From Candidatus Latescibacterota bacterium (lineage in GTDB: Bacteria > Latescibacterota > UBA2968 > UBA8231), in contig OZ241867.1 in assembly GCA_965203175.1 (NCBI GenBank), positions 2,080,001 to 2,144,000 on the forward strand: a DNA stretch of 64,000 bases, read 5' to 3'. Each line of letters starts with the position of its first letter. Positions within the stretch are counted from its first letter, which is position 1. The position numbers were made by a program, and so were the translations under genes. This document shows, one piece after another, positions 1,736 through 45,499 of the stretch. The notes under the pieces are model-generated. The model ran no database searches, was not told where the DNA came from, and was given only the letters and a program-made list of their open reading frames with translations.

Positions 1736-1786
1736 GGCACTTCGTCGGCGAGAACATCGCGGAATCGAGTGGGAAGGAGAATAACC

Positions 1787-4294: not shown

Positions 4295-4341
4295 AGGGAT
4301 TCCCTACAAGTCGTACCGATTTGAGGAGGAGAAAAATAACC

Positions 4342-6834: not shown

Positions 6835-6898
6835 TGAACAACGATCGTTAATTCCCTACAAATCACACTGATTTAAAGAGAAAAGGAAGATACCAATC

Positions 6899-9331
6899 AT
6901 GCTCAAGAGCTATCTGCCCCAAAATGCAGGGGTCATGTCGCTTTTCATCGTCTGTCTTATCGGGCTCGTGTTCAGCATTGGCGTCGGCGCGGAGCCGCTA
7001 GTGGAAGGCCGGATACGCCTATCGTCCGGGTTGCCAGCCGCCGGGGTGCAAGTGCGGCTGTTCGATTTGAGCGACCTGCGCCAGTCCGTCGGCACGACGA
7101 CGGATGCGACCGGCTATTTTGCACTTTCGCTGCCAGCACTGTCTGGGGGAAGGAACGCGGCGCTGCCCGCCGACTTTGCCTTGGGGCAGAATTACCCCAA
7201 TCCGTTCAATCCTTCTACCCTCATTCCCTACCAACTGCCAGTGGCTGGTCCTGTGCGGCTGGAAGTGTTCAATATGCTGGGGCAGCGCTTGGCCAAGTTA
7301 GTCGATGGCGAACGGTCGGCGGGTGTACACACGGCGCGGTGGGACGGTACGGATGCGGCTGGGCGCGCGGTCGGGGCGGGAGTGTATATCTACCGGCTCA
7401 GCAGTGGCGGGATGACGGTGAGTCGGCGGATGGTGCTGATTGACGGGCAGGCTGGGGTTAGCAGCGGTGCGCCGAGTAGGCCCTATACGTCACCGGCTAC
7501 CCAAGATCAGGTGTATGGATTGGCCGTTTGGGGCTCGGACATGGTCGCCTACGTGGATCCCGCCTTCCAAGTTCGAGACGGGATGGCTCCAGTGGACATC
7601 GTCGTGGAAGCGCGTGGCCTGTCTGGGCGGCTGAAGGTGGCCGCAGGTAGCCTCTTGGGGGATGTCAACGGCGATGGTCGCGTCGATATTGTCGATGCTT
7701 TGTTCGTGGCCATGTACAGCGTCGATCCTTCGACTTTGGCGGCTCATATTCCCAACATTTCCCTCGGCGATGTGGATGCCGATGGCGACCTCGACTTTAC
7801 CGACGCTTATCTAATAGGGACGTACAGCGTCAATCCGTTGGATCCCATGTTGCCCGCGGGGATTGGCCAAGCCGTATCTGATCCTGAATTCCTGACTCCT
7901 GAGGCAGCCCGTAGTGCGCTAGATGAGCGGGGGATTGCGTATGCCCCGGCATCCTTTTTGGAGCGCATCCGCGCGGGGGATGTATCTGCGGTACGGCTGT
8001 TTATTGCGGCTGGGATGGACATCCACGCCCAAGATGATGATGGCAGGACGGCTTTGATGTGGGTGGCCTTTGGGGGCGATGTGGAAATGGTTCGTCTTTT
8101 GCTCGCCAACGGGGCCAATATCCACGCCCAAGATGCCGACAGCACTACGGTATTGATGTGGGCCGCTTCTGGGGGTGGTGTGGAGGTGGTGCATCTTTTG
8201 CTCGCCAACGGGGCCAATATCCACGCCCAAGATAAATACGGCTATACGGCCTTGACGTGGGCGGCTGGGGCGGGTCAGGTGGAGGTGGTGCATCTTTTGC
8301 TCGCCAACGGAGCCGACATAAGCGCACAAAATAGCTCCGGCATTACAGCTTTGATGTTAGCCGCTAGGGCGGGTCAGGTGGAAGTAGTGCGGCTCTTACT
8401 CGCCAATGGGGCCGACCTCCACGCCCAAGATGACCTCTTTGACAGGACGGTATTGATGTGGGCCGCTTCTGGGGGGCATGTGGAGGTAGTGCGTCTTTTG
8501 CTCGCCAACGAGGCCGACATTCACGCCCAAGATGACCTGTATGGTAGGACGGCCTTGGCGTGGGCCGCTTTTGGGGGCCATGTGGAGGTAGTGCGTCTTT
8601 TGCTCGCCAACGAGGCCAATATCCACGCCCAAAATAGCTCCGGCAGGACGACCTTGATGTATGCCGCTAGGGAAGGCCATATCGAGGTAGTGCGGCTCTT
8701 ACTCGCCGACGGGGCCGACATTCACGCCCAAGATGCCTACTATGGCAGGACGGTCTTGGCGTGGGCCGCTTGGGCGGGTCAGATGGAGGTAGTGCGGCTC
8801 TTACTCGCCGACGGGGCCGACATTCACACGCGAACTAACGAAGGCACTACGGCCTTGATACTAGCTGTTCTTGAGGGCCATGTCGAGGTCGCACGCATCT
8901 TAGTAGAACAATGGGTAGCAGAAGGAGATGTGGATGCCCGATATGACGACGACACTACGGTTTTGATGTGGGCCGCTCAGGCAGGCCATGTCGAGATGGT
9001 TCGCTTCTTGCTCGAAAACGACACCGATATTCACGCCCGAAATAACAACGGCACTACGGCCTTGGCGTGGGCCGCTTGGGGGGGCGCTGTGGAGGTGGTG
9101 CGTCTCTTGCTTGAAAGCGGCACCGATATTCACGCCCGAAATAACGGCGGCTGGACGGTCTTGATGTGGGCGGCTCGGGGGGGCGCTGTGGAGGTGGTGC
9201 GTCTCTTGCTTGAAAGCGGCACCGATATTCACGCCCAAAATAACGACGGCACGACGGCCTTGAGCTTGGCCAAAAATAGTGGTCGCCAAGAGGTGATAGA
9301 CCTTCTCGAAGCGGCTGGTGCCACGGAGTAA
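6899..9331 (+). CDS. Secreted ankyrin-repeat protein (13 repeats) with prealbumin-like/FlgD-Ig (T9SS-A-like)/dockerin-like N-terminal module
   Basis: Signal peptide; QNYPNPFNPST...WDGTD...GVYIYRL; GDVNGDGRVDIVDAL...GDVDADGDLDFTDA; repeated G-x-T-A/V-L-M-x-A-A-x-x-G-x-V-E-V-V-R-L-L-L; alternative start 6935. Confidence 0.92.
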   Translation: MLKSYLPQNAGVMSLFIVCLIGLVFSIGVGAEPLVEGRIRLSSGLPAAGVQVRLFDLSDLRQSVGTTTDATGYFALSLPALSGGRNAALPADFALGQNYPNPFNPSTLIPYQLPVAGPVRLEVFNMLGQRLAKLVDGERSAGVHTARWDGTDAAGRAVGAGVYIYRLSSGGMTVSRRMVLIDGQAGVSSGAPSRPYTSPATQDQVYGLAVWGSDMVAYVDPAFQVRDGMAPVDIVVEARGLSGRLKVAAGSLLGDVNGDGRVDIVDALFVAMYSVDPSTLAAHIPNISLGDVDADGDLDFTDAYLIGTYSVNPLDPMLPAGIGQAVSDPEFLTPEAARSALDERGIAYAPASFLERIRAGDVSAVRLFIAAGMDIHAQDDDGRTALMWVAFGGDVEMVRLLLANGANIHAQDADSTTVLMWAASGGGVEVVHLLLANGANIHAQDKYGYTALTWAAGAGQVEVVHLLLANGADISAQNSSGITALMLAARAGQVEVVRLLLANGADLHAQDDLFDRTVLMWAASGGHVEVVRLLLANEADIHAQDDLYGRTALAWAAFGGHVEVVRLLLANEANIHAQNSSGRTTLMYAAREGHIEVVRLLLADGADIHAQDAYYGRTVLAWAAWAGQMEVVRLLLADGADIHTRTNEGTTALILAVLEGHVEVARILVEQWVAEGDVDARYDDDTTVLMWAAQAGHVEMVRFLLENDTDIHARNNNGTTALAWAAWGGAVEVVRLLLESGTDIHARNNGGWTVLMWAARGGAVEVVRLLLESGTDIHAQNNDGTTALSLAKNSGRQEVIDLLEAAGATE

Positions 9332-9484
9332 CATAGACGGCCTAAGAAAAGCCGGATTAGACTGGCTCTACCTTAACACCGGGAGTACTGCCTTATGACT
9401 AAACTCACTGTGAACGCGCCGTGTCCTTTACCCGGCCATCAGTCGGTTTCCTCTAATCCGACATCCAATAAAGGAGTTGACCTC

Positions 9485-12400
9485 ATGCTGGCTTTCATCG
9501 CCTGTCTTATCGGGCTCGTGTTAAACGTTGGCGTCGGCGCGGAGCCGCTAGTGGAGGGCCGGATACGCCTATCGTCCGGGTTGCCAGCCGCCGGGGTGCA
9601 GGTGCGGCTGTTCGATTTGAGCGATCTGCGCCAGTCCGTCGGCACGACGACGGATGCGACCGGCTATTTTGCGCTTTCGCTGCAAACACTGTTTGGGGGA
9701 AGGAATGCGACCCTGCCGACCGACTTTGCCTTGGGGCAGAATTATCCCAATCCGTTCAATCCTTCCACTCTTATTCCCTATCAACTGTCGGCGACTGGCC
9801 ATGTACGGCTGGAAGTATTCAATATGCTGGGACAGCGCGTGGCCAAGTTAGTCGATGGCGAACGGTCGGCGGGTGTGCACACGGTGCGGTGGGACGGTAC
9901 GGATGCGACCGGGCGCGCGGTCGGGGCGGGAGTGTATATCTATCGGCTCAGTAGCAGGGGGATGGAGGTGAGTCGGCGGATGGTGCTGATAGACGGGCAG
10001 GCTGGGGTCCGCAGCGGTGCGTCGAGTAGGCCCTATACGGCACTGGCTGCCCAAGAAGATCAGACGTATGGGTTGGCTGTTTGGGGCTCGGACATGGTCG
10101 CCTATGTGGATCCCGCTTTCCAGGTCCGAGACGGGATGGCTCCGGTGGACATCGTCGTGGAAGCGCGCGGCTTATCCGGTCGGCGAAAGGTCGTTGAGAG
10201 TGGCCTCTTAGGGGATGTCAACGGCGATGGTCGCGTCGATATTGTCGATGCTTTGTTCGTGGCCATGTACAGCGTCGATCCTTCGACTCTTGCGGCTCAT
10301 ATTCCCAACATTTCTCTCGGCGATGTGGATGCCGATGGCGACATCGACTTTGCCGACGCCTATCTAATAGGGACGTATAGCGTCAATCCGTTGGACCCCA
10401 CCTTGCCCGCGGGGATTGGCCAAGCCGTATCTGATCCTGAATTCCTGACTCCTGAGGCAGCTCGTAGTGCGCTGAATGATCGAGGGATTGCGTATACGTC
10501 GGCATCCTTTTTGGAGCGCGTCCGAGCGGGGGATGTATCTGCGGTACGGCTGTTTGTTGCGGCTGGGATGGACATCCATGTCCGAGATAAATACGGCACG
10601 ACGGCCTTGAACGCGGCCGCTTTTATGGGCCATGTCGAGGTCGTACGCATCTTAGTAGAACAGTGGGTAGCGGAAGCAGACGCGCAGGCCCGAGATGCCG
10701 ACGGCACGACGGTTTTGATGTGGGCGGCTCGGGGGGGCGCTGTGGAGGTGGTGCGTTTTTTGGTCGCCAACGGGGCCGACATTCACGCTCAAAATAACGC
10801 TGGCACGACAGTCTTGATGTATGCGGCTTTGGGGGGCGCTGTGGAGTTCGTGCGTTTCTTGCTCGAAAATGGTGCCGACATTCACGCTCAAAATAACGCT
10901 GGCACGACAGTCTTGATGTATGCGGCTTTGGGGGGCGCTGTGGAGTTCGTGCGTTTCTTGCTCGAAAATGGTGCCGACATTCACGCTCAAAATAACGCTG
11001 GCCGGACGGCCTTGATGTATGCGGCTCAGGGGGGTGATGTGGAGGTGGTGCGTTTTTTGGTCGACAACGAGGCTGGCCTCCACGACCAAGATGACCGCAG
11101 CCGGACGGTCTTAGTGTGGGCGGTTTTTGGGGGTGATGTGGAGGTGGTGCGTTTTTTGGTCGACAACGGCGCTGACCTCCACGTCCGAGATGCCTCTGGC
11201 CGGACGGCCTTGATGTATGCGGCTCAGGGGGGTGATGTGGAGGCGGTGCGTCTTTTGCTCGACAACGGCGCTGACCTCCACGCCCAGAATAACACCGGCG
11301 AGACGGCCTTGACGTATGCGGCTGCGGGGGGCGATATGGAAGTGGTGCGACTTTTGTTCGAAAACGGCGCTGACATAAATAAAAAAACTGACTACGGCCT
11401 TACGGCCTTAACGAGGGCCGCTTGGACGGGCCACGTCGAGGTGGTGCGTTTCTTGCTCGACAAGGGGGCTGACCTCCACGTCCGAGATGACCACGGCAGG
11501 ACGGTTTTGATGTATGGTGCTCAGGAGGGCCACGTCGAGGTGGTGCGTTTTTTGCTCGAAAACGGCACCGGAGCCAACATAAATAAAAAAACTGACTACG
11601 GCACTACGGCCTTGATGAGGGCCGCTCAGGAGGGCCACGTCGAGGTGGTGCGTCTTTTGCTCGACAACGGGCCTGACATTCACGCTAAAGAGTTCCATTC
11701 TGGCAGGACTGCCTTGATGTTCGCTGCTGATGAGGGTCATGTCGAGGTCATACGCATCATAGTAGAACACTGGGTAGCGGAAGCAGGCCCGGAAGCCCAA
11801 GATGACAACGGTACTACGGTTTTGATGTGGGCTGCTTTGGGGGGCGATGTGGAGATGATTCGCCTCTTGCTCGACAACGGGGCCGACCGCCAAGCCCAAG
11901 ATGCCTCTGGCCGGACGGTTTTGATGTATGGTGCTTGGGGGGGCGCTGTGGAGGTGGTGCGTTTCCTGCTCGACAACGGGGCCGACCGCCAAGCCCAAGA
12001 TGCCTCTGGCCGGACGGTTTTGATGTATGGTGCTTGGGGGGGCGCTGTGGAGGTGGTGCGTTTCCTGCTCGACAACGGGGCTGATCGCCAAGCCCAAGAT
12101 GCCTCTGGCACGACGGTCTTGATGTATGCTGCTCGGGAGAGTGCTGTGGAGGTGGTGCGTTTCTTGCTCGCCAACGGGGCCGACATAAATAAACAAAATG
12201 ACTACGGTATTACGGTCTTGATGTATGCCGTTGGTTTTGGGTTCCCCGATAGGGAGATCGGTGTCGAAGTGGTGCGTCTTTTGCTCGCCAACGGGGCCGA
12301 TATACACGCCCAAGATGACAACGGCACGACGGTCTTGATGTGGACCGCTCGGGAGAGTGTTGTGGAGATGGTTCGTCTTTTGCTCGACAAGGGGGCCGAC

Positions 12401-12604
12401 CTCCACGCCCAAAATAACAACGGCTGGACGGCCCTGATGTTCGCCGCTCGGAGGAGCAACTTGGAGATGGTTCGTCTTTTGCTCGACAAGGGGGCCGACC
12501 TCCACGCCCAAAATAACAACGGAGATACGGCCTTGAGCTTTGCCAAAAAAGGTGGTCGCCAAGAAGTGATAGACTTTCTCAAAGCGGCTGGTGCTACGGA
12601 GTAA
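9485..12604 (+). CDS. Secreted ankyrin-repeat protein (20 repeats), same N-terminal module
   Basis: AAAGGAG RBS before ATG 9485 (ORF track starts at 9395); same domain motifs; C-cap ...AAGATE. Confidence 0.92.
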   Translation: MLAFIACLIGLVLNVGVGAEPLVEGRIRLSSGLPAAGVQVRLFDLSDLRQSVGTTTDATGYFALSLQTLFGGRNATLPTDFALGQNYPNPFNPSTLIPYQLSATGHVRLEVFNMLGQRVAKLVDGERSAGVHTVRWDGTDATGRAVGAGVYIYRLSSRGMEVSRRMVLIDGQAGVRSGASSRPYTALAAQEDQTYGLAVWGSDMVAYVDPAFQVRDGMAPVDIVVEARGLSGRRKVVESGLLGDVNGDGRVDIVDALFVAMYSVDPSTLAAHIPNISLGDVDADGDIDFADAYLIGTYSVNPLDPTLPAGIGQAVSDPEFLTPEAARSALNDRGIAYTSASFLERVRAGDVSAVRLFVAAGMDIHVRDKYGTTALNAAAFMGHVEVVRILVEQWVAEADAQARDADGTTVLMWAARGGAVEVVRFLVANGADIHAQNNAGTTVLMYAALGGAVEFVRFLLENGADIHAQNNAGTTVLMYAALGGAVEFVRFLLENGADIHAQNNAGRTALMYAAQGGDVEVVRFLVDNEAGLHDQDDRSRTVLVWAVFGGDVEVVRFLVDNGADLHVRDASGRTALMYAAQGGDVEAVRLLLDNGADLHAQNNTGETALTYAAAGGDMEVVRLLFENGADINKKTDYGLTALTRAAWTGHVEVVRFLLDKGADLHVRDDHGRTVLMYGAQEGHVEVVRFLLENGTGANINKKTDYGTTALMRAAQEGHVEVVRLLLDNGPDIHAKEFHSGRTALMFAADEGHVEVIRIIVEHWVAEAGPEAQDDNGTTVLMWAALGGDVEMIRLLLDNGADRQAQDASGRTVLMYGAWGGAVEVVRFLLDNGADRQAQDASGRTVLMYGAWGGAVEVVRFLLDNGADRQAQDASGTTVLMYAARESAVEVVRFLLANGADINKQNDYGITVLMYAVGFGFPDREIGVEVVRLLLANGADIHAQDDNGTTVLMWTARESVVEMVRLLLDKGADLHAQNNNGWTALMFAARRSNLEMVRLLLDKGADLHAQNNNGDTALSFAKKGGRQEVIDFLKAAGATE
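10775..11003 (+). repeat. Perfect 99-bp tandem repeat (about 2.3 units) encoding duplicated ankyrin repeats
   Basis: gccgacattcacgctcaaaataacgctggc recurs at 10775, 10874 and 10973. Confidence 0.9.
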
Positions 12605-12736
12605 CTAGACGGCCCCTATCTCACTCGACATCGGGAATACTGCCTTATGACTAAGCTCACTGTGAACGCGGTCGACTGGCCATTGGGTTCCTCTAATCCA
12701 ACATCCAACGTACATCCAGCTAAAGGAGTTGCCCTC

Positions 12737-15700: not shown

Positions 15701-15748
15701 CGTCAAAGGATAATAGACCTTCTCGAAGCGGCTGGTGCCACGGAGTAA
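12737..15748 (+). CDS. Secreted ankyrin-repeat protein (19 repeats), same N-terminal module
   Basis: AAAGGAG RBS before ATG 12737 (ORF track starts at 12647); same domains. Confidence 0.92.
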   Translation: MLPFIACLIGIVLSIRVGAEPLVEGRIRLSSGLPAAGVQVRLFDLSDLRQSVSTTTDATGYFALSLQALSGGRGAALPADFALGQNYPNPFNPSTLIPYQLPATGHVRLEVFNMLGQRLVRLVDGERSAGAHTARWDGTDAAGRAVGAGVYIYRLSSGGMTVSRRMVLIDGQAGVRNGVSSRPYTAPATQDQAYGLAVWGSDMVAYVDPAFQIRDGMAPVDIVVEARGLSGRLKVAAGGLLGDVNGDGRVDIVDALFVAMYSVDPSTLAAHIPNISLGDVDADGDLDFTDAYLIGTYSVNPLDPTLPAGIGQAVSDPEFLTPEEARGALNDRGIAYTSASFLERIRAGDVSAVRLFIAAGIDIHARDADGTTALMLAAWYGHVEVVRLLLENGTDIHARRDNGQTALMMAAAAGHVEVVRILVEQWVAAAGARAQDADGSTALMWAARGGDVEMVRLLLENGANINAQDVSGTTVLMYAARGGDAEVVRLLLENGIDIHARNNNGITVLMYAARGGDAEVVRLLVENGTDVHAQNNNGITVLMYGARGGDVEVVRLLLENGTDIHAQDDHGGTALGAGADRGDVEVVRLLLENGADINTQDVSGSTALMKAALGGHVEVVRLLLENGADIHAEQEKGFTALMYAASGGDVEVVRLLLENGANINERNDYGYTALMRAAQRGDVEVVRLLLENGADLHAQNFSNSKTVLMFAADKGHVAVIRILVEQWVAEAGPEAQDASGRTVLMWAAFGGDVEMVRFLLENGADLHAQDASGRTVLMYAAWGGDVEVVRLLLENGTDIHAQDISSRTVLMYAAWGGDVEVVRLLVENGADIRARDVSGRTVLMDAARGGDVEVVRLLVENGADLHAQNAYDITVLMWAAFGGDVEVVRLLVENGTDLHARDISGTTVLMYAARGGDVAVARLLVENGTDIDVQNNDGWTALMFAIDFGYSGGEGGVEVVRLLLDNGADINVQNNDGWTALRLAKNNPRQRIIDLLEAAGATE

Positions 15749-15782
15749 CTTGGACGGCCCAAGAAAAGCCGGATGAGATGAT

Positions 15783-18182
15783 ATGTGGAAGAGCAACCTG
15801 ATCATTGCCCTGCGCGTATTGGGGCGCAACAAGACGATCTCGCTGATTAACATCATCGGCCTGTCCGTGGCCTTTGCCGTGGCAGTCCTGTGTCTGCTGT
15901 TCGTGCGCCACGAGACCTCCTTTGACACTTGGCACGAAAAAGGGGACCGGATCTTCGCCATCTATCTTGATCCGCTAGAGCCCGAACCCGGTGCATTCTT
16001 TAACCGTTCCACGATGAGAGGTTACAGTCTGCGCGAGGACGTGCGTGCTAAAGTCGTCGGCATCCGCGAATCGGTTTCCATGCGGTTGGGCGTCGGTAAA
16101 GTCTCGTATGGAGATGCGACCTTTGATGAGTCCTTCCTCGCGGTCGATCCGGCTTTCCTCACTATGTTCACCTTGCCACTGGCTGCGGGCGATGCGGTGA
16201 CGGCTCTCGACGATTCTCAGAGCGTTGTTCTCGCCCATGAGACGGCCCAGAAGTACTTCGGTGCCGATGTTCCTGCCCACGCCCTACTGGGCAAGCGCAT
16301 CCGGCTGCACACCGTCGAGTGGGACCACTCGACATCGCCGCTGAAGGAGACGCCTATCGAGGTGGAGCGTACCATTGCGGGTGTACTGGCACCCCTGCCG
16401 GGGCCTTCCATTTTGCGTCTAAAGGTACTCGTGCCCGCAGTAACGGCCGAGGCCCTGTACTTCAGGGGGACAGGCGGACTCTTTGTTGAACTTGAAGAGG
16501 GCGTAGAGCCTGCCGAAGTGGAAACGCGGCTGGCACCCCTGATCTCGCGGGACCGATTGAAGTTGCAACCTTTTGCGGGTGCTCACTTAGGACCTAGGAT
16601 AATGGGACCCGTCCCCCTCGGTTATGGCTCGGTCGAGCATATCTATCTGTTGGCAGGGCTGGCCGCGCTCGTACTGCTGATAGCTGCCATCAACTTCGTC
16701 AACCTCGCCATGAGCCGCGCTATGACGCGGACCTTGGAAGTCGGGGTGCGCAAGGTGGTCGGCGCGACACGCTACCAGCTTTCCAACCAATTCCTCGCCG
16801 AAGCAATCGTAGTAAGCCTAATCGCCATCGCCGTTGGCATGGGCTTTGCCGAAATCGTGCTGCCGACGTTTAACGAGGTCATGCGTCAGCAACTCATGCA
16901 TCGGCAGCTAGAGATTGAGTGGCTGTCGGTCGAGACAGGGATAGGTGCCTTAACCCTTGCCGTGGTGGTCGGCGTACTCTCGGGTCTGTATCCGGCCCAA
17001 ATCGTTACGCGGCTCCATCCCGTCCGGGCACTGTCCCGCAAGACGCCTCAGCCGGGTCGCGGCTGGCTCGGTCGCGGTCTGATTGTCGTGCAGTTTGCGC
17101 TGTCGGCCGTTCTCCTCGTCGTGACGATCACTATGGCGCGACAGCTCGATTTTATGCGCACCAAGGATTTGGGCTTCGACGGCGACCAAGTCTTGCTGGC
17201 TATCCAATTTAAAGGCAGTCTCAATGCTTTGCAGATTGAGCGTCTCGCCGACGAGATCAATTTCCGGCCGGGACTTGTACAAGGAGTTACCGGTGCCTCG
17301 GCCGCACCCGGCTTTGGCGGCTTTCCCCCTATGACAATCCGGTCCGATGAGAACGAGCTCCGCGCTAAGCCCTTCTACGTAAGTCCAAACTTCCTGAGCG
17401 TCATGGGTATAGAGGTCCTCTCCGGGCAGGGCTTCGATCCCAATCTGCCGCACGGAGTTCTGCTCAACGAGACCGCCGCACGCCTCTTCGGCTCTGAAAA
17501 CCTAATCGGCCGCACCTTGACATCTACCCAAAATGATGGCGAGCCAATGACGGTGATCGGCATAGTCAAAGATTTCCACTTCGTGGATATGCGCCATACC
17601 ATAGGGCCGGCTTTTCTAACTACACCTATGCTAGAAGATCGGTTCAGGCGCACCCTGTTCCGGCTCGACCGCGCCGACCTGCCCGCGGCGGTCGAAGAGG
17701 TAAAGGCGCTGTGGAAGCGGGTTTTGCCGGAATACGAATTGTGGGGCGTGCGCTTCCTCGCCGAAGCCTTTGCCGAGAAATACGAGACTGAGCAGCGCAT
17801 CGGCCTTGTCATGCGATGGATGAGTGCCGTCGCCATTGCGATCTCCTGCATGGGGCTTTTTGGCTTGGTCGCTTTGGCATCCGTGCGGCGCACCAAGGAA
17901 ATTGGCATCCGCAAGGTATTGGGCGCTACGACCGGCAGCGTGCTGCTGTTGATGTCGCGCGAATTCGGCTGGCTGGTGGTGGCGGCCAATGTCATTGCTT
18001 GGCCTGTGGCTTATTTCGCGTTGAACCGCTGGCTCGCGCTCTACGCCTACCGCATTGACATGGGCGTGGGATGGTTTGTGCTGGCGGGCGTGGGCGTTCT
18101 CGCGGTTGCACTGGTCACTGTCAGCGGCCAAACGTGGCTGGCGGCGCGGACCAATCCGGCGGATGCGTTGAGATACGAATAG
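15783..18182 (+). CDS. ABC transporter permease, duplicated MacB-PCD/FtsX type (copy 3)
   Basis: MWKSNLIIALR start, INFVNL, EVGVRKVVGA, RRTKEIGIRKVLGA, NPADALRYE. Confidence 0.92.
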   Translation: MWKSNLIIALRVLGRNKTISLINIIGLSVAFAVAVLCLLFVRHETSFDTWHEKGDRIFAIYLDPLEPEPGAFFNRSTMRGYSLREDVRAKVVGIRESVSMRLGVGKVSYGDATFDESFLAVDPAFLTMFTLPLAAGDAVTALDDSQSVVLAHETAQKYFGADVPAHALLGKRIRLHTVEWDHSTSPLKETPIEVERTIAGVLAPLPGPSILRLKVLVPAVTAEALYFRGTGGLFVELEEGVEPAEVETRLAPLISRDRLKLQPFAGAHLGPRIMGPVPLGYGSVEHIYLLAGLAALVLLIAAINFVNLAMSRAMTRTLEVGVRKVVGATRYQLSNQFLAEAIVVSLIAIAVGMGFAEIVLPTFNEVMRQQLMHRQLEIEWLSVETGIGALTLAVVVGVLSGLYPAQIVTRLHPVRALSRKTPQPGRGWLGRGLIVVQFALSAVLLVVTITMARQLDFMRTKDLGFDGDQVLLAIQFKGSLNALQIERLADEINFRPGLVQGVTGASAAPGFGGFPPMTIRSDENELRAKPFYVSPNFLSVMGIEVLSGQGFDPNLPHGVLLNETAARLFGSENLIGRTLTSTQNDGEPMTVIGIVKDFHFVDMRHTIGPAFLTTPMLEDRFRRTLFRLDRADLPAAVEEVKALWKRVLPEYELWGVRFLAEAFAEKYETEQRIGLVMRWMSAVAIAISCMGLFGLVALASVRRTKEIGIRKVLGATTGSVLLLMSREFGWLVVAANVIAWPVAYFALNRWLALYAYRIDMGVGWFVLAGVGVLAVALVTVSGQTWLAARTNPADALRYE

Positions 18183-18230
18183 AGGAAAAGGGAGCGTGTA
18201 GAACAGACCCCAAAGCCGAAAGGGAATGGG

Positions 18231-18310
18231 ATGCTGAGAACCTAATCATCACGGCTGGACGCAATCTCGTTCGGCACAAGGCGTATGCGCTACTGAATGT
18301 CGTTGGACTG
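18231..18310 (+). pseudogene. Frameshifted 5' stub of another ABC permease
   Basis: ATG CTG AG, then a shifted frame reading NLIITAGRNLVRHKAYALLNVVGL, matching the permease N-termini; breaks off at the ankyrin-gene leader. Confidence 0.75.
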
Positions 18311-18347
18311 ACATCCAACATCCATGAATGATAAAGGAGTTGATATC

Positions 18348-21300
18348 ATGTTGCCTTTTATCGCCTGTCTTATCGGGCTCGTGTTAAGTATTCGCGTCGG
18401 CGCGGAGCCGCTGGTGGAGGGCCGGATACGCCTATCGTCCGGGTTGCCAGCCGCTGGGGTGCAAGTGCGGCTGTTCGATTTGAGCGATCTGCGCCAGTCC
18501 GTCAGCGCGACGACGGATGCGACTGGCTATTTTGCGCTTTCGCTGCAAGCACTGTCAGGGGGAAGGAATGCGACCCTGCCCGCCGACTTTGTCTTGGGGC
18601 AGAATTACCCCAATCCGTTCAATCCTTCCACGGTCATTCCCTATCAACTGCCAGCGGCTGGTCCTGTGCGGCTGGAAGTGTTCAATATGCTGGGGCAGCG
18701 CTTGGTCCGGTTAGTCGATGGCGAACAGTCGGCGGGTGTGCACATGGCTCGGTGGGACGGTACGGATGCGGCGGGACGTGCGGTAGGAGCGGGGGTGTAT
18801 ATCTACCGGCTCAGCAGTGGGGGGATGGAGGTGAGTCGGCGGATGGTGCTGATTGACGGGCAGGCCGGGGTCCGCAGCGGTGCGCCGAGTAGGCCCTATA
18901 CGGCATCGGCTACCCAAGATCAGGCGTATGGCTTGGCCGTTTGGGGCTCGGACATGGTCGCCTATGTGGATCCCGCTTTCCAGATCCGAGACGGGATGGC
19001 CCCGGTAGACATCGTAGTGGAAAAGCGCAGTCTGTCTGGGCGGCGGAAGGTCGTTGCGGGTAGCCTCTTAGGGGATGTCAACGGCGATGGTCGCGTCGAT
19101 ATTGTCGATGCGCTGTTCGTGGCCATGTACAGCGTCGATCCTTCGACTTTGGCGGCTCATATTCCCAACATTTCTCTCGGCGATGTGGACGCTGATGGCG
19201 ACATCGACTTTACCGATGCCTATCTGATAGGGGCGTATAGCGTCAATCCGTTGGATCCCACATTGCCAGCGGGGATTGGCCAAGCCGTATCTGATTATGA
19301 CTCTCTGACTCCTGAGGCAGCTCGTAGTGCGCTAGATGATCGGGGGATTGCGTATACATCGGCATCCTTTTTGGAGCGCGTCCGAGCGGGGGATGTATCT
19401 GCGGTACGGCTGTTTATTGCGGCTGGGATGGACATCCACGCCCAAGATGACGATGGCACGACGGCCTTGATGTGGGCAGCTCGGGGTGGCGATGTGGAGG
19501 AGGTGCGCTTCTTGCTGGAAAACGGGGCCAATATAAATGCCCGGAATAACAACGGCATTACGGCCTTGATGTTCGCCGCTGCTGCGGGCCATGTGGAGGT
19601 CGTACGCCTCTTAGTAGAACAGTGGGTAGCGGCAGCAGGTGCTCAGGCCCAAGATGACGATGGCACGACAGTCTTGATGTGGGCGGCTCGGGGTGGCGAT
19701 GTGGAGATGGTGCGCTTCTTGGTCGACAACGGCGCTGACGTCCACGCCCAAGATGCCAACGGCATTACGGTTTTGATGTATGCCGCTTGGGGTGGCGATG
19801 TGGAGGTGGTGCGTTTCTTGGTCGACAACGGCGCTGACGTCCACGCCCAAGATGCCAACGGCATTACGGTTTTGATGTATGCCGCTTGGGGTGGCGATGT
19901 GGAGGTGGTGCGTCTTTTGCTCGACAACGGCACCGACCTCCACGCTCGGAATAACAACGACTGGACGGTTTTGATGTATGCCGCTTGGAGGGCTCACGTC
20001 GAGGTGGTGCGTTTCTTGGTCGAAAACGGGGCCGATATTCACGTCCAAAATAACGACGGCTGGACAGCCTTAATGCGGGCGACTCAGAGCGGCGATGTGG
20101 AGGTGGTTCGTTTCTTGGTCGACAACGGTGCCGACATAAATAAACAAACTAAACACGGCTTTACGGCCTTGACGTGGGCGGCTTTTGGTGGCGATGTGGA
20201 GATGGTTCGTTTCTTGGTCGACAACGGTGCCGACATTAACGCCCAAGAAGCAAGGGGTAGTACGGCCTTAATACAGGCGGCTTTTGGTGGCGATGTGGAG
20301 GTGGTTCGTTTCTTGGTCGACAACGGTGCCAACATAAATAGAAAAGATGACTACGGCTTTACGGCCTTAATGCGGGCGGCTCAGAGCGGCGATGTGGAGG
20401 TGGTGCGGTTTTTGCTTGCCAACGGCGCTGACCTTCACGCCCAAGCATTCTACTCTGGCAAGACGGTCTTGATGATGGCCGCTGATGAGGGCCGTGTCGA
20501 GGTCATACGCATCTTAGTAGAACAATGGGTAGCGGAAGCAGGCACGGATGCCCGAGATGCCTCTGGCCGGACGGTCTTGATGTGGGCGTCTTTTGGTGGC
20601 GATGTGGAGATGATGCGCTTTTTGCTGGAAAACGGGGCCGACATAAACGCCCAAAATGACAATGGCATTACGGTCTTGATGTATGGTGCTTGGGGCGGCG
20701 ATGTGGAGGTAGTGCGTCTTTTGCTTGCCAACGGCGCCGACCTCCACACCCAAGATTCTTCCGGCCGTACGGTCTTAATGTGGGCGGCTCGGGGCGGCGA
20801 TGTGGAGGTGGTTCGTCTTTTGCTCGCCAACGGCGCTGACCTCCACACCCCAAATGTCTCCGGCCGTACGGTCTTGATGGATGCGTCTTTTGGTGGCGAT
20901 GTCGGGGTCGTACGTCTTTTGCTTGATAACGGTGCCGACATAAACGCCCAAAATGACAACGGCATTACGGTCTTGATGTGGGCGTCTTTTGGTGGCGATG
21001 TGGAGGTAGTGCGTCTTTTGCTCGCCAACGGCGCTGACCTCCACACCCAAGATGTCTCCGGCACTACGGTCTTGATGTATGCGGCTCGGGGGGGTGATGC
21101 AGAGGTGATGCGTCTTTTGCTTGATAACGGCGCTGACACCGACATAAACGCGCAAAATGACAACGGCAGGACGGCCTTGATGTTCGCCTCTGATTTTGGG
21201 TACTCCGGTGGGGAGGGTGGTGTGGAGGTGGTACGTCTTTTGCTCGCCAATGGTGCCGACATAAACGCCCGAGATAACGACGGTTGGACGGCCTTGAACA

Positions 21301-21368
21301 TTGCCAAAAGCAGGGGAGGGCAACCAAGGGTGGTAGACCTTCTTGAAGCGGCTGGTGCCACGGAGTAA
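18348..21368 (+). CDS. Secreted ankyrin-repeat protein (19 repeats), same N-terminal module
   Basis: AAAGGAG RBS before ATG 18348; repeat layout colinear with 12737-15748. Confidence 0.92.
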   Translation: MLPFIACLIGLVLSIRVGAEPLVEGRIRLSSGLPAAGVQVRLFDLSDLRQSVSATTDATGYFALSLQALSGGRNATLPADFVLGQNYPNPFNPSTVIPYQLPAAGPVRLEVFNMLGQRLVRLVDGEQSAGVHMARWDGTDAAGRAVGAGVYIYRLSSGGMEVSRRMVLIDGQAGVRSGAPSRPYTASATQDQAYGLAVWGSDMVAYVDPAFQIRDGMAPVDIVVEKRSLSGRRKVVAGSLLGDVNGDGRVDIVDALFVAMYSVDPSTLAAHIPNISLGDVDADGDIDFTDAYLIGAYSVNPLDPTLPAGIGQAVSDYDSLTPEAARSALDDRGIAYTSASFLERVRAGDVSAVRLFIAAGMDIHAQDDDGTTALMWAARGGDVEEVRFLLENGANINARNNNGITALMFAAAAGHVEVVRLLVEQWVAAAGAQAQDDDGTTVLMWAARGGDVEMVRFLVDNGADVHAQDANGITVLMYAAWGGDVEVVRFLVDNGADVHAQDANGITVLMYAAWGGDVEVVRLLLDNGTDLHARNNNDWTVLMYAAWRAHVEVVRFLVENGADIHVQNNDGWTALMRATQSGDVEVVRFLVDNGADINKQTKHGFTALTWAAFGGDVEMVRFLVDNGADINAQEARGSTALIQAAFGGDVEVVRFLVDNGANINRKDDYGFTALMRAAQSGDVEVVRFLLANGADLHAQAFYSGKTVLMMAADEGRVEVIRILVEQWVAEAGTDARDASGRTVLMWASFGGDVEMMRFLLENGADINAQNDNGITVLMYGAWGGDVEVVRLLLANGADLHTQDSSGRTVLMWAARGGDVEVVRLLLANGADLHTPNVSGRTVLMDASFGGDVGVVRLLLDNGADINAQNDNGITVLMWASFGGDVEVVRLLLANGADLHTQDVSGTTVLMYAARGGDAEVMRLLLDNGADTDINAQNDNGRTALMFASDFGYSGGEGGVEVVRLLLANGADINARDNDGWTALNIAKSRGGQPRVVDLLEAAGATE

Positions 21369-21398
21369 CATGGACAGCCCAAGAAAAAGCCGGATGAT

Positions 21399-23801: not shown

Positions 23802-23882
23802 ATGTACGCCGCTTGGGTGAGAGTAGGCACTTGATATGCTAACTGTCCTCAAACTCTAAACAAGAATGCGAGAGATCACACT

Positions 23883-26282: not shown

Positions 26283-26472
26283 ATGCACGCCGCTTGCTAG
26301 CACGCCGTCAGGACGAGTCGCATTGATCCAATAGAAGCGCTGCACTGTGAGTGGCTCAAGTGCAACTAGGCTCTTACAAAAAAATGTATGGGCCTTTTTA
26401 ATTTTCCCCTCTCTGGCCGTCTTTACTTGCAGACGGATTGATATGCGTCATCAGTCCCGCATTTGAATACCT

Positions 26473-28326: not shown

Positions 28327-28342
28327 ATGAAGGAGGTTCAAG

Positions 28343-38889: not shown

Positions 38890-40032
38890 ATGATCATGTT
38901 GTTCACGTATCGTACTTTAGACGATGAAGAGAAGCGGGTAGAAGAAGCTACGGCTCGCCTACGAGCCGATCTGCGTCGCTATGTCGCTACAGAGCCGCGC
39001 CGCTGGACGGGCTTGTTAGCCCGTATGACCCGGGCTCGCGCCCTTGCCGGATCCAATAGCATAGAAGGTATCAATGTGTCCGATGATGACGCCATCGCCG
39101 CGATTGATCGTGAAGATCCCGCCAACACGGACCGCGACACATGGCAGGCTGTCGTCGGCTACCGCGAAGCAATGGACTACATCCTCCAGCGCCGTCAGAG
39201 CCCGTCCTTCATGATCACCGAGGACGTGATCTTGGCCGTCCATTTCATGATCTGCCAGTCAGATTTGCAAGCAAATCCGGGTCAGTACCGCCCCGGATGG
39301 GTCGGTGTGCGAAACAGCAGGACCGGTGAATTGGTCCACGAGGGAGTGGATCGCGACCAATTAGAGCCCCTCATCCACGAGCTGCTAGACTACGTAAACA
39401 ACGATCAGGTCGATTCGGTCTTCCTACGCGCTGCCATGACACACCTGAACTTGGCGATGCTGCATCCATTTACGGATGGTAACGGGCGGACTGCCAGATG
39501 TATCCACACTGCGGTATTGGCCAGTGACGGGATCGTCGCGCCGACATTCTCTTCAATTGAAGAGTACATCGGCCACAATCAACAAAAATATTACGACGTA
39601 TTGGCCGAGGTCGGAGGGGGTGCATGGCAACCAGCGCGCGACGCTAAGCCGTGGATTCGCTTCTGCTTAACTGGTCACTATGTGCAAGCGCAAACACTGC
39701 TCCGTCGGATGCGAGAGTTGGAAAGGCTTTATGTAGAACTCTCGGATTTGGTAACTGCCAACGGATTACCCGACCGCATGGCCTTGGCCCTCATTCAGGC
39801 TGCCTTTGGCACTAGGGTGCGCAACTCGTCCTATCGGGTAAGCGCAGATGTGTCCAAGAATCTCGCTAGCCGTGATCTGAAGGTGCTCGTGGATACAGGA
39901 CTTCTAGTTTCCGAGGGCGAACGGCGTGGACGGTTCTACAGTGCGGCCCCCATTGTGGCGGAGATCCGTCAGAGGTTGCGGCTTCCCAAGAAGGTTGACG
40001 ATCCTTTTGCCGAGGGCGGGCCGGCTTCGTAG
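38890..40032 (+). CDS. Fic family protein with C-terminal winged helix
   Basis: HPFTDGNGRTAR Fic motif; SNSIEG inhibitory-helix motif; ASRDLKVLVDTGLL HTH. Confidence 0.93.
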   Translation: MIMLFTYRTLDDEEKRVEEATARLRADLRRYVATEPRRWTGLLARMTRARALAGSNSIEGINVSDDDAIAAIDREDPANTDRDTWQAVVGYREAMDYILQRRQSPSFMITEDVILAVHFMICQSDLQANPGQYRPGWVGVRNSRTGELVHEGVDRDQLEPLIHELLDYVNNDQVDSVFLRAAMTHLNLAMLHPFTDGNGRTARCIHTAVLASDGIVAPTFSSIEEYIGHNQQKYYDVLAEVGGGAWQPARDAKPWIRFCLTGHYVQAQTLLRRMRELERLYVELSDLVTANGLPDRMALALIQAAFGTRVRNSSYRVSADVSKNLASRDLKVLVDTGLLVSEGERRGRFYSAAPIVAEIRQRLRLPKKVDDPFAEGGPAS

Positions 40033-42270: not shown

Positions 42271-42318
42271 GTAGAGAGGTCAGTAAGAATAGCTTGATAT
42301 TAGGGGGAGAAGAGAAGA

Positions 42319-45489: not shown

Positions 45490-45499
45490 GGAGATAAAA

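What the first reader, a model, noticed from the sequence alone, without database searches (positions are those of the whole stretch)
6899..21368. Natural DARPin-like repertoire: constant scaffold and caps, variable code positions
Seen: four paralogs share a near-identical ~330-aa N-module, an N-cap (TPEAAR.AL..RGIAY...RAGDVSAVRLF) and a C-cap (...AAGATE) around 13, 20, 19 and 19 repeats. Variation concentrates in the hairpin and in T-x-L-M-[W/Y/R/F/D/K]-A-A-[R/W/F/Q/L/D]-x-G. Proteins 3 and 4 have the same layout but different residues at these sites. Known: these are the target-contacting positions randomised in designed ankyrin libraries. Inference: a modular binder repertoire with an RVD-like code that is reshuffled by repeat-level recombination.
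Basis: partly seen in the sequence, partly recalled or inferred. Interest (0 to 1): 0.72.

Follow-up and report, generated by a model that had tools for sequence, protein, structure and literature searches.

The report
Secreted ankyrin binder family, sponge symbiont
Four neighbouring genes of an uncultured sponge-associated bacterium encode exported ankyrin-repeat proteins that share one carrier module and differ mainly on their binding face; that pattern is normal for ankyrin repeats, but the shared carrier module appears undescribed.

Summary
Four same-strand genes (810, 1069, 1033 and 1014 aa) share an N-terminal module (89-92% identical), an N-cap and an AAGATE C-cap. They carry 13, 20, 19 and 19 ankyrin units. 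Variability peaks at unit columns 2, 3, 5, 10 and 13.

- **Generic pattern:** these are the same five columns that vary most in natural ankyrin repeats generally (PMC4308713), so designed libraries copied nature.
- **No positive selection shown:** between orthologues in three sister species these columns have pN/pS about 0.77, against 0.30 for the rest.
- **Little shuffling:** arrays stay collinear between species. Change comes from single-unit duplication or loss, and the scaffold halves of units look homogenised within a gene.
- **No RVD-like code** is shown.

New points:
- DNA 99% or more alike lies in sponge metagenomes.
- Sister species have two such genes and this genome has four.
- The N-module is a signal peptide, beta-sandwiches including a T9SS type-A sorting domain placed near the N-terminus, and a dockerin. 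In relatives it carries LRR, WD40, YWTD-propeller and ankyrin payloads.
- The genes sit inside a MacB-type exporter super-cluster.

Best reading: exported eukaryote-like host-binding proteins, a known kind with an apparently undescribed carrier.

The parts
6899..9331 (+). A1: exported ankyrin protein, 810 aa, 13 units (leader 6899-6991, N-module 6992-7891, N-cap 7892-8032, array 8033-9328)
9395..12604 (+). A2: exported ankyrin protein, 1069 aa, 20 units (leader 9395-9541, N-module 9542-10444, N-cap 10445-10585, array 10586-12601); 'a' lineage, with orthologues in G012, G021 and G011
12647..15748 (+). A3: exported ankyrin protein, 1033 aa, 19 units (leader 12647-12793, N-module 12794-13693, N-cap 13694-13834, array 13835-15745); 'b' lineage, with orthologues in G012, G011 and G021
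   Evidence: array model pLDDT 90.7
18324..21368 (+). A4: exported ankyrin protein, 1014 aa, 19 units (leader 18324-18404, N-module 18405-19304, N-cap 19305-19445, array 19446-21365); divergent 'b'-type paralogue seen only in this genome among the four compared
12995..13237 (+). T9SS type-A sorting domain (Por_Secre_tail / FlgD_ig-like beta-sandwich) inside the N-module of A3, near the N-terminus instead of at the C-terminus; the same domain is in A1, A2 and A4, with its NYPNPFNP motif starting at 7190, 9740 and 18603
   Evidence: TIGR04183 40.4 bits against cut-off 23, profile positions 2-70 of 72; FlgD_ig in all four; fold hits to FlgD and to PorU, PorZ and RgpB CTD entries
13457..13618 (+). 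Dockerin type I-like module of A3 with two Ca-loop motifs; the equivalent loop motifs span 7658-7789, 10211-10342 and 19071-19202 in A1, A2 and A4
   Evidence: Dockerin_1 25.4-27.9 bits against cut-off 22.9 in all four; pLDDT 74-90 in the model; no cohesin in the genome
10793..10990 (+). A2 units 3 and 4: a tandem duplicate, 99 of 99 nt identical
11900..12097 (+). A2 units 14 and 15: a tandem duplicate, 97 of 99 nt identical
14837..14944 (+). Example of the special 36-aa 'EQW' ankyrin unit (A3 unit 11). Others: A1 8834-8941; A2 10586-10693 and 11693-11800; A3 13934-14041; A4 19545-19652 and 20448-20555. The second helix is longer, and these are among the most conserved units between species
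15539..15655 (+). 39-aa penultimate unit of A3 with a 6-aa insert after column 15 (also A2 12197-12313 and A4 21156-21272)
15783..18182 (+). p3: duplicated MacB/FtsX (ADOP-like) permease lying between A3 and A4. It is not an ankyrin gene. It is 85-87% identical to p4 and p5, and 86-88% identical to the permease downstream of the ankyrin pair in the three sister species
1769..6834 (+). p1 and p2: ADOP-like permeases upstream (1769-4294, 4321-6834)
21399..30784 (+). p4 (21399-23801), p5 (23883-26282), ECF-sigma fusion (26473-28326) and p6 (28343-30784): downstream part of the exporter super-cluster

Best explanation
The four genes are a lineage-specific expansion of a family of exported ankyrin-repeat binding proteins. 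Three sister species have two such genes each; this genome has four. The organism is an uncultured bacterium, and DNA 99% or more alike occurs in sponge metagenomes.

Each protein has these parts in order:
- a Sec-type leader (hydrophobic core, then VGA|EP);
- a roughly 300-aa carrier of beta-sandwich domains, including a T9SS type-A sorting-domain fold, plus a dockerin-like Ca-binding module;
- an N-cap;
- a long ankyrin solenoid;
- a C-cap.

The solenoid's beta-turn and first-helix face (columns 2, 3, 5, 10, 13, rich in W, Y, F and R) is the likely ligand-binding surface. It differs between paralogues, so each probably binds a different partner.

The most likely role is that of the eukaryote-like repeat proteins of sponge symbionts: extracellular or surface-exposed binders of host (sponge) proteins that help the bacterium to persist, for example by avoiding phagocytosis.

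The arrays evolve by duplication or loss of single units, and the scaffold halves of units appear to be homogenised within a gene. The binding face is under weak constraint. The N-module appears to be kept alike between paralogues, probably by gene conversion.

**Shown:** gene structure, domain content, unit counts, variability profile, orthology and collinearity, dN/dS classes, the occurrence of near-identical DNA in sponge metagenomes, and the distribution of the carrier module.

**Inferred:** export, the binding face, host proteins as targets, and gene conversion.
For: **Domains.** Ankyrin, FlgD_ig, Dockerin_1 and CarboxypepD_reg (the last below its Pfam cut-off) are found in all four proteins. 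TIGR04183 scores 40.4 bits against a cut-off of 23.

**Export signals.** The leader has a hydrophobic core followed by VGA|EP. The mature parts, 779-1020 aa long, contain no cysteine.

**Structure.** The A3 array model has pLDDT 90.7 and pTM 0.71, with regular helix pairs. The best fold matches are the 24-repeat ankyrin-B/R domain (E 3e-38) and DARPin fusions (by sequence).

**Variability and selection.**
- Variable columns average 2.83 bits and the rest 0.95 bits. Aromatic residues and Arg dominate columns 10 and 13.
- The scaffold is under purifying selection (omega 0.15-0.29). The variable columns run at 0.53-1.35 in pairwise comparisons and 0.77 pooled.

**Orthology.** Orthologous gene pairs lie in the same permease context in G011, G012 and G021. 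Arrays are collinear between species.

**Unit turnover.** Some tandem units are identical or nearly so: 99 of 99 and 97 of 99 nt. Scaffold halves match best within the same gene (92-98%), while the binding halves match orthologous positions.

**N-module history.** Its tree is star-like. The a and b lineages are monophyletic in none of 200 bootstrap trees, and the four copies of this genome group together with weak support, 79/92.

**Habitat.** Runs labelled sponge metagenome hold the stretch. In X2, 134 of 375 laid contigs are 99% or more alike; in X3, 67 of 235.

**Published context.** Sponge-associated MAGs are enriched in ankyrin, LRR, TPR and HEAT repeat proteins. Such proteins let E. coli evade phagocytosis when expressed in it (passages read in PMC8163846, and PMC4850255).
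Against: - No expression, localisation or binding data exist. No RNA run held the stretch.
- The signal peptide was judged by eye only.
- The sorting-type domain is not at the C-terminus, so the route across the outer membrane is unknown.
- No cohesin partner for the dockerin is present in the genome.
- The variable face evolves at about the neutral rate, which could mean that parts of it are not under selection for any ligand.
- The genes are embedded co-directionally, with gaps of 30-141 nt, in a MacB-type exporter cluster. This could point to a periplasmic or envelope role instead of host binding.
- The habitat inference rests on run labels and on contigs.
Confidence: 0.6

Rival explanations
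1. One reading: a programmable binder repertoire. Each unit contributes a code residue set, as in TALE RVDs, and new specificities arise by shuffling units within and between genes under diversifying selection.
For: - The scaffold is constant and five sites are hypervariable.
- Very recent unit duplications exist.
- Unit numbers differ between orthologues: 20, 20, 20 and 17 in the a lineage; 19, 20, 20 and 18 in the b lineage.
- Complete close homologues (ending in AAGATE) from other assemblies hold roughly 9 to 14 units by regex splitting; some are undercounted where a unit was missed.
- One sponge-metagenome contig shows an in-frame two-unit deletion in A2.
- A2 against its orthologues has omega 1.13-1.35 at the variable columns.
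Against: - Arrays are collinear between species.
- 74-83% of variable-column residues are kept between orthologues.
- Pooled omega at the variable columns is 0.77, significantly below 1 (p 0.013). Only column 13 exceeds 1.
- The nearest neighbours of binding halves are orthologous positions, not units of other genes.
- The variability profile is the generic one of natural ankyrin repeats.
- Ankyrin domains bind through a continuous surface spanning several units, not one unit per target element (established knowledge).
Confidence: 0.08
2. The N-module is a dedicated export and display carrier that feeds repeat payloads to the type IX secretion system through an internal, N-proximal sorting domain. 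The ankyrin arrays would then end up on the cell surface or be released together with the sorting domain.
For: - The sorting domain passes the NCBIfam cut-off over its full length.
- In this genome about 132 of 146 tblastn hits to the same domain lie at protein C-termini, like ordinary T9SS cargo. Thirteen are N-proximal or internal.
- The genome encodes PorU (632 bits against cut-off 420), an adjacent PorV-like gene (147 bits, below cut-off 250) and SprA_N (82 bits against cut-off 27).
- All 120 of 120 best homologues have the NYPNPFNP motif at residues 60-128, at least 459 residues after it, and a dockerin motif.
- 379 clusters at 50% identity match at E 1e-30 or better, and in nearly all of the best 150 the match begins near the N-terminus.
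- The payloads are binding modules: CARDB in 17, YWTD in 15, LRR in 14, PD40 in 9, WD40-type propeller models in 3 to 8, and ankyrin in 3 of 59 representatives.
Against: - All T9SS signals characterised so far act at the extreme C-terminus (recalled, not checked in a paper). Here 640 or more residues follow the domain.
- GldM was not found, although the control search was silent too.
- The PorV-like gene scores below its cut-off.
- The domain may simply be a structural beta-sandwich re-used as a spacer.
- The N-module model is of low overall confidence (pLDDT 62.6, pTM 0.37).
Confidence: 0.15
3. The ankyrin proteins work with the surrounding MacB-type exporter cluster, either as periplasmic cargo expelled by the pumps or as periplasmic partners or regulators of the permeases' large periplasmic domains.
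For: - Thirteen of the genome's 14 full-length ADOP-like permease matches lie in one co-directional cluster of about 49 kb that contains the four ankyrin genes.
- The cluster starts with a HlyD-family adaptor and an ABC ATPase, and holds a second ATPase and an Omp85-like gene.
- Gaps between the ankyrin genes and the adjoining permeases are 30-141 nt.
- The same ankyrin-between-permeases arrangement is kept in three other species, and the [ankyrin + permease] unit seems to have duplicated together.
- MacB pumps expel periplasmic substrates (recalled).
Against: - The other N-module proteins of this genome (LRR, WD40, propeller and CARDB payloads) are not next to ADOP-like permeases.
- Proteins of about 100 kDa are far larger than known MacB substrates (recalled).
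- Tandem clusters attract further tandem duplications, so the linkage may be historical.
Confidence: 0.1

Closest known systems
Ankyrin-repeat / eukaryote-like repeat proteins (ARPs, ELRs) of marine sponge symbionts. Nguyen et al. 2014 and Reynolds & Thomas 2016 were seen only as citations; passages were read in PMC8163846 and PMC4850255.
   Same: - Multi-unit ankyrin proteins in a bacterium whose DNA occurs in sponge metagenomes.
- Present as paralogous families.
- The genome also encodes LRR and WD40 relatives.
- Presumed extracellular host interaction.
   Different: - Here the arrays are fused to a conserved N-terminal carrier (sorting-type beta-sandwich plus dockerin). My searches found this in no paper.
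- PMC8163846 states that the export route of such proteins is unclear.
- No functional test exists for this family.
Designed ankyrin repeat proteins (DARPins) and the ANK-N5C library (PMC8683736 and PMC4308713, passages read)
   Same: - 33-residue units with N- and C-caps.
- Variable columns 2, 3, 5, 10 and 13 are identical to the ANK-N5C randomised set.
- They overlap the DARPin set, which I recall as 2, 3, 5, 13, 14 and 33 (not checked).
- 34-44% identity to DARPin chains.
   Different: - These are natural proteins with 13-20 units rather than 2-5.
- The motif is T-[AV]-L-M instead of TPLH.
- Special 36- and 39-residue units occur.
- Scaffold identity between units is only 67%.
- The likeness reflects that the designs were derived from natural consensus and natural entropy.
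24-repeat membrane-binding domain of ankyrin-B / ankyrin-R (PDB 4rlv, 5y4d, 8cs9)
   Same: - The best sequence match (E 1e-110) and the best fold match (E 3e-38).
- A long uninterrupted ankyrin solenoid of similar length.
   Different: - 29-33% identity.
- TM-score only 0.36-0.45, so the overall curvature differs.
- The eukaryotic domain is a cytosolic adaptor, whereas this is a bacterial exported protein.
T9SS type-A cargo proteins (TIGR04183 C-terminal sorting domain)
   Same: - Sec leader plus a full-length type-A sorting-domain fold.
- The genome holds PorU, a PorV-like gene, an SprA-like gene and more than 130 ordinary C-terminal cargo candidates.
   Different: The domain sits at about residues 90-200 and is followed by 640 or more residues, so the defining C-terminal position is not met.
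TALE repeats with repeat-variable di-residues
   Same: Tandem units with a conserved scaffold and a few hypervariable sites; unit number varies.
   Different: - Units here are not near-identical.
- There are at least five variable sites per unit.
- The fold is a protein-binding fold.
- There is no evidence for a one-unit, one-target rule or for DNA binding.
Poribacterial haem-LRR-cohesin-dockerin surface proteins with a C-terminal T9SS domain
   Same: A sponge symbiont; a repeat binding array combined with a dockerin and a T9SS sorting domain.
   Different: - There the sorting domain is C-terminal and cohesins are present.
- Here it is N-proximal and no cohesin is found.
- The payload and the phylum differ.

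Membership tests
Ankyrin repeat proteins (Pfam Ank, Ank_2 and related models) | Tandem units of about 33 residues matching the Pfam ankyrin models above the gathering score | tested here: met
   Ank_2 E 4.6e-147 to 1.1e-209 in all four proteins; helix-turn-helix units with pLDDT 90.7
Ankyrin repeat proteins (Pfam Ank, Ank_2 and related models) | Canonical TPLH tetrapeptide at the start of helix 1 | tested here: not met
   T invariant in 71 of 71 units and L in 71 of 71; the P position is V (37) or A (33); the H position is M in 55 of 71. This is a sub-family variant and not grounds for exclusion.
DARPin-like consensus ankyrin binders | Variability confined to the beta-turn and helix-1 surface columns, with a constant framework and caps | tested here: met
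   Columns 2, 3, 5, 10 and 13 average 2.83 bits against 0.95 for the rest. The same five columns top the entropy of natural repeats (PMC4308713), so the feature is generic to ankyrin repeats.
Diversifying (positively selected) binder repertoire | dN/dS above 1 at the variable sites | tested here: not met
   Pooled pN/pS is 0.77 over three orthologue pairs, below 1 at p 0.013. Column 13 is 1.23, column 5 is 0.92 and column 10 is 0.77. Pairwise values range from 0.53 to 1.35. No site-model test was possible.
TALE-like coded repeats | Near-identical units differing at about two code residues, with one unit per target element | tested here: not met
   Random unit pairs are 67% identical outside the variable columns. 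There are at least five variable columns and 63 distinct combinations in 71 units. The target rule cannot be tested here.
T9SS type-A cargo | Type-A sorting domain (TIGR04183) above the cut-off | tested here: met
   40.4 bits against cut-off 23, profile positions 2-70 of 72
T9SS type-A cargo | Sorting domain at the extreme C-terminus | tested here: not met
   The NYPNPFNP motif lies at residues 94-116, with 640 or more residues after the domain
T9SS type-A cargo | T9SS machinery encoded in the genome | tested here: inconclusive
   PorU 632 bits (cut-off 420) and SprA_N 82 bits (cut-off 27) are met. The PorV-like gene scores 147 bits, below cut-off 250. GldM was not found, but the control genomes were silent too.
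Cellulosome-type dockerin proteins | Dockerin type I module | tested here: met
   Dockerin_1 25.4-27.9 bits against cut-off 22.9 in all four; weak PDB matches to cellulosomal dockerins, E 0.01-0.07
Cellulosome-type dockerin proteins | Cognate cohesin in the same organism | tested here: not met
   PF00963 gave 0 matches; 4 candidates were scored; genome completeness 93%
Sponge-symbiont eukaryote-like repeat proteins | Encoded by a sponge-associated bacterium | tested here: met
   Runs labelled sponge metagenome from at least three studies hold 22-37% of the sampled words. Laid contigs 99% or more alike number 134 of 375 in X2 and 67 of 235 in X3.
Sponge-symbiont eukaryote-like repeat proteins | Interferes with host or amoebal phagocytosis, or binds host proteins | not testable with these tools
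   This needs expression and cell assays
ADOP duplicated permeases (neighbouring genes) | TIGR03434 above the curated cut-off | tested here: not met
   Full-length matches score 224-286 bits against a cut-off of 622. They have two MacB_PCD and two FtsX stretches each, so they are ADOP-like only.

The most novel reading that the evidence does not exclude
The roughly 300-aa N-module is a so far undescribed export and display carrier. Through its N-proximal T9SS sorting-type domain and its dockerin, it would take eukaryote-like binding payloads (ankyrin, LRR, WD40, YWTD propellers) out of the cell in this sponge-symbiont lineage. That would answer how such proteins reach the host without classical effector secretion systems. 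In this reading the four ankyrin genes form a constant/variable family: gene conversion keeps the carrier and the scaffold uniform while the binding faces diverge.
Probability: 0.15. Interest if true: 0.7.

Novelty: new variant of a known kind. Interest (0 to 1): 0.42.

Why it matters
Ankyrin and other eukaryote-like repeat proteins are the best-known genomic signature of sponge symbionts. How they leave the cell and what they bind remain open questions: PMC8163846 states that classical secretion routes are mostly absent.

This locus contributes three things.
- It gives a clean, complete-genome example of such a family.
- It shows that in this lineage ankyrin, LRR, WD40 and propeller payloads all hang on one conserved N-terminal module, which contains a secretion-type sorting fold in an unusual position. 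This makes the export question testable with reporter fusions.
- It corrects an attractive but over-read idea. The DARPin-like variability pattern is what any natural ankyrin family shows, and here it carries no signal of positive selection or of a repeat code.

Tried and rejected
- **Promoter and terminator scan of 4000-23900.** It found 5 promoter-like and 16 terminator-like sites, no more than in shuffles (7.7 and 19.3), so it says nothing about operon structure.
- **Cohesin search.** No match.
- **GldM search.** No match, but the control genomes were silent as well, so it is uninformative.
- **Laying contigs of four runs.**
  - Contigs in the arrays are short (about 250-750 nt).
  - Most joints have a short side under 35 letters or are unclear.
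  - The lack of cover over the 3' half of A4 in X17 and X3 cannot be interpreted.
  - The one clean joint is in X2: it skips 198 nt (10997 to 11196), with flanks of 124 and 269 nt and no mismatches. The two units share a 48-nt tract that fits both sides of the joint. My inference is that a graph assembler can jump across such a tract, so I treat this as a hint only.
  - The same caution applies to the 98-nt 'goes back' joint in X3.
- **RNA.** No RNA run held the stretch.
- **N-module structure.** The model is of low overall confidence (pLDDT 62.6, pTM 0.37), so only domain-level fold hits were used.
- **Pfam scan of all 120 homologues.** It exceeded the size limit. I scanned 59 representatives at 50% identity instead and used an HMM built from the window's own units for the 120.
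- **Literature searches.** No paper was found for ankyrin repeat + dockerin + eukaryotic-like proteins + symbiont or for Latescibacter + type IX secretion. One irrelevant paper was found for dockerin + ankyrin + sponge. Seven papers were found for type IX secretion + ankyrin + symbiont; I opened two, and neither links the sorting domain to ankyrin arrays in one protein.
- **Unavailable paper.** Reynolds & Thomas 2016 is not held.
- **Earlier findings of this scan.** The look-up by sequence found nothing.
- **Phylum.** I did not verify it.

Full report
**What is there**

The interval holds four + strand genes for ankyrin-repeat proteins:
- A1, 6899-9331, 810 aa;
- A2, 9395-12604, 1069 aa;
- A3, 12647-15748, 1033 aa;
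- A4, 18324-21368, 1014 aa.

All four proteins give very strong Pfam ankyrin matches. In their first third all four also match CarboxypepD_reg (below its Pfam cut-off), FlgD_ig and Dockerin_1. Tandem Repeats Finder reports 99-nt arrays with 73-83% matches.

Splitting at the invariant T-x-L motif gives 13, 20, 19 and 19 units, 71 in all. The N-modules are 89-92% identical to that of A3. The N-cap (LTPE[A/E]AR...RGIAY...RAGDVSAVRLF) and the AAGATE C-terminus are present in all four.

**Variability profile**

In a 33-column register, with the invariant Thr at column 6:
- entropy is 2.6-3.1 bits at columns 13, 5, 3, 2 and 10;
- it is about 2 bits at columns 14, 16 and 1;
- it averages 0.95 bits over the 28 columns outside the top five.

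Columns 10 and 13 are dominated by Y, W, F and R.

The paper describing the ANK-N5C library states that, among natural internal repeats, the five positions with the highest entropy were 2, 3, 5, 10 and 13. [quoted passage not shown] DARPin framework and paratope design likewise derive from natural consensus (PMC8683736, passages). The DARPin position list 2, 3, 5, 13, 14, 33 is my recollection. The designed libraries copy the natural pattern.

One real departure from the canonical repeat is the motif T-[AV]-L-M in place of TPLH.

**Relatives and orthology**

A whole-genome search of 40 relatives found syntenic copies only in G011, G012 and G021. Each of these has two ankyrin genes between ADOP-like permeases.

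- A2 is the orthologue of the first gene (lineage a) and A3 of the second (lineage b).
- Unit by unit, A3 matches its G012 orthologue along a diagonal shifted by one unit at 86-100% nt identity. A2 matches its orthologue at 83-100%.
- Unit numbers are 20, 20, 20 and 17 in lineage a, and 19, 20, 20 and 18 in lineage b.
- A4 is a more divergent b-type copy, with array dS of about 0.44 to A3 and 0.42 to the G012 b gene.
- A1 belongs to a third lineage, with A1-like layouts in other assemblies such as P0006 and P0009.
- The permeases p3, p4 and p5 are 85-87% identical to each other, and 84-92% identical to the permease that follows the ankyrin pair in the sister species. An [ankyrin + permease] segment therefore seems to have duplicated here.

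**Selection**

Nei-Gojobori estimates give omega 0.15-0.29 for scaffold columns and 0.20-0.27 for the N-module. For the five variable columns, individual pairs give 0.53-1.35. The highest values are A2 against its orthologues (1.13-1.35). A3 against A4 gives 0.88.

I pooled three orthologue pairs column by column and compared with the pooled synonymous rate (0.195):
- column 13 has pN/pS 1.23, column 5 has 0.92, column 10 has 0.77, column 2 has 0.49 and column 3 has 0.45;
- the five together give 0.77, below 1 at p 0.013;
- the rest give 0.30, and the two classes differ at p 1e-8.

At the protein level orthologues keep 74-83% of the variable-column residues. Random unit pairs keep 17%.

So the face is much less constrained than the scaffold, but positive selection is not shown. 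Site models on many strains could not be run here.

**How the arrays change**

- A2 units 3 and 4 are identical over 99 of 99 nt, and units 14 and 15 over 97 of 99.
- I split each unit into a binding half (columns 1-16) and a scaffold half (columns 17-33). In A2 and A3 the binding half mostly finds its best match at the orthologous position in another species. The scaffold half often finds its best match inside the same gene: A1 units 1, 2, 5 and 6 at 92-94% and units 11 and 12 at 98%; A4 units 3 and 4 at 96%, units 7 and 9 at 94%, and units 13, 14 and 16 at 94-96%; A2 units 18 and 19 at 98%.
- This is the pattern expected from short conversion tracts within an array that survive when they do not alter the binding face. 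I saw no clear case of a unit moved between genes.
- The N-module behaves differently from the arrays. Its synonymous distances are flat (0.20-0.39) across all ten genes. Its tree is star-like. The a and b lineages are monophyletic in none of 200 bootstrap trees. The four copies of this genome group together only weakly, 79/92. Gene conversion of the constant part is the simplest reading. A burst of duplication just before speciation, followed by rapid array turnover, is the alternative.
- Population evidence is thin. One contig in a sponge-metagenome run joins A2 across an in-frame 198-nt (two-unit) gap with perfect flanks. The joint lies in a 48-nt tract shared by the two units, so an assembly artefact is possible.

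**The N-module**

- After a leader with a hydrophobic core and VGA|EP (judged by eye) comes a small beta domain.
- Next is a domain that passes NCBI's model for the T9SS type-A sorting domain: TIGR04183, 40.4 bits against cut-off 23, covering profile positions 2-70 of 72.
- Then come a short beta segment and a dockerin-type module.
- The AlphaFold model is confident only per domain: overall pLDDT 62.6, sorting-type domain 70-89, dockerin 74-90. Foldseek finds FlgD and the PorU, PorZ and RgpB C-terminal-domain entries among other Ig-like stalk domains.
- In this genome the same domain occurs in 146 tblastn hits. About 132 lie at protein C-termini, like ordinary T9SS cargo, and 13 are N-proximal or internal, including the four ankyrin genes.
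- The genome encodes PorU (632 bits), an adjacent PorV-like protein (147 bits, below its cut-off) and an SprA-like protein. There is no cohesin.

The module is a family-wide carrier.
- Within this genome it also precedes an LRR array, a PPC-CARDB protein, a GSDH-type propeller and two PD40+WD40 double propellers. A shortened form precedes an LRR-M66-like protein.
- All 120 of the 120 best database homologues have the NYPNPFNP motif at residues 60-128 with at least 459 residues after it, and 57 of them carry ankyrin units.
- Against 1.84 billion representatives, 379 clusters match at E 1e-30 or better. In nearly all of the best 150 the match begins near the N-terminus.
- Among the 59 best representatives the payloads are CARDB (17), YWTD / LDL-receptor class B (15), LRR (14), SGL (11), PPC (10), PD40 (9), WD40-type propeller models (3 to 8) and ankyrin (3).
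- I found no paper describing this architecture.

**The arrays as structures**

The A3 cap-plus-array model has pLDDT 90.7 and pTM 0.71, with regular helix pairs. The cap is one extra helix plus an ankyrin-like helix pair. The two 36-residue 'EQW' units have a lengthened second helix and slightly lower confidence. The 39-residue penultimate unit has a longer first helix.

The best solved relatives are the 24-repeat domains of ankyrin-B and ankyrin-R (sequence E 1e-110, fold E 3e-38, TM 0.36-0.45) and DARPin fusions at 34-44% identity.

**Habitat and context**

Runs labelled sponge metagenome from several studies hold the stretch. Laid contigs are 99% or more alike in 134 of 375 cases in X2 and 67 of 235 in X3. 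NCBI names for the closest homologues say Gemmatimonadota MAGs. I did not check either.

Sponge-associated MAGs, including Latescibacterota and Gemmatimonadota, are known to be enriched in ankyrin, LRR, TPR and HEAT repeat proteins. Such proteins helped E. coli to escape phagocytosis. The authors note that classical secretion systems are mostly missing (PMC8163846, passages; PMC4850255 and PMC12993501, passages).

The four genes lie inside a co-directional super-cluster of about 49 kb. It starts with a HlyD-type adaptor and an ABC ATPase and holds 13 of the genome's 14 full-length ADOP-like permease matches. Gaps between the ankyrin genes and their neighbours are 30-141 nt. The other N-module genes of the genome are not next to such permeases.

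**Verdict**

The locus is a real, intact and selectively maintained family of exported ankyrin binders of a sponge-associated bacterium. This is a known kind of protein.

The 'natural DARPin repertoire' framing over-reads a generic ankyrin property. The 'RVD-like code' and 'reshuffling' are not supported. What is seen is unit-level duplication and loss, probable scaffold and N-module homogenisation, and paralogue-specific binding faces.

It is the conserved N-terminal carrier, with a secretion-type sorting fold in the wrong place and a dockerin without a cohesin. This lineage attaches the carrier to ankyrin, LRR, WD40 and propeller payloads alike.

Noticed in passing
window 1-30784, continuing upstream to about G000:C1:2058855 (L019, L020): A co-directional MacB-type exporter super-cluster of about 49 kb. 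It holds a HlyD-family adaptor, two ABC ATPases, an Omp85-like gene, 13 of the genome's 14 full-length ADOP-like duplicated permease matches, a redoxin and a CBM9-like protein. A divergent sigma-54 two-component pair lies at its head.
   Followed up: partly
window 26473-28326 (+): A 617-aa protein with ECF sigma-70 regions 2 and 4 in its first 175 residues, followed by about 440 residues with no family match. It sits among the permease genes.
   Followed up: no
window 8834-8941, 10586-10693, 11693-11800, 13934-14041, 14837-14944, 19545-19652, 20448-20555: 36-residue 'EQW' ankyrin units in which ...ILVEQWVAEAG.. replaces the usual loop. They sit at fixed places in every array and are among the most conserved units between species (98-99% nt at two of them). 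They have a lengthened second helix in the model. Their role (hinge, sub-domain boundary or specific site) is unexplained.
   Followed up: partly
window 42000-48500, 38890-40032 and 55563-56426: A lower-GC stretch (51-54%) with a DUF6602 protein, a DDE transposase and an AbiU2-type HEPN protein. Elsewhere there are a Fic-domain protein and an rve integrase. Together these look like a small mobile or defence island.
   Followed up: no
G000:C1:4797750-4799927 (-) (L018): A fifth long ankyrin protein (725 aa). It has its own signal-like leader and the same type of N-cap but no N-module. Its units are 47.5% identical at best to the A3 array.
   Followed up: partly
G000:C1:2232687-2246048: Another ankyrin-rich region elsewhere in the genome, including one tblastn locus of 6951 nt (about 2300 aa of ankyrin-like sequence, 33-34% identity to A3).
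   Followed up: no
window 9332-9394, 15749-15782 and 21369-21398: A short conserved motif (GGAC[GA]GCC.AAGAAAA.GCCGGAT) follows the stop codons of A1, A3 and A4. It can form a 4-5 bp hairpin. No terminator-like T tract follows it on the + strand.
   Followed up: no
P0019-P0103 (database homologues): A sister family of about 1010-1120 aa has the same N-module (about 64% identity), a middle YWTD / LDL-receptor-B-type region, only about 4-10 ankyrin units by the regex split, and a different C-terminus (…LRSVEDAG).
   Followed up: partly
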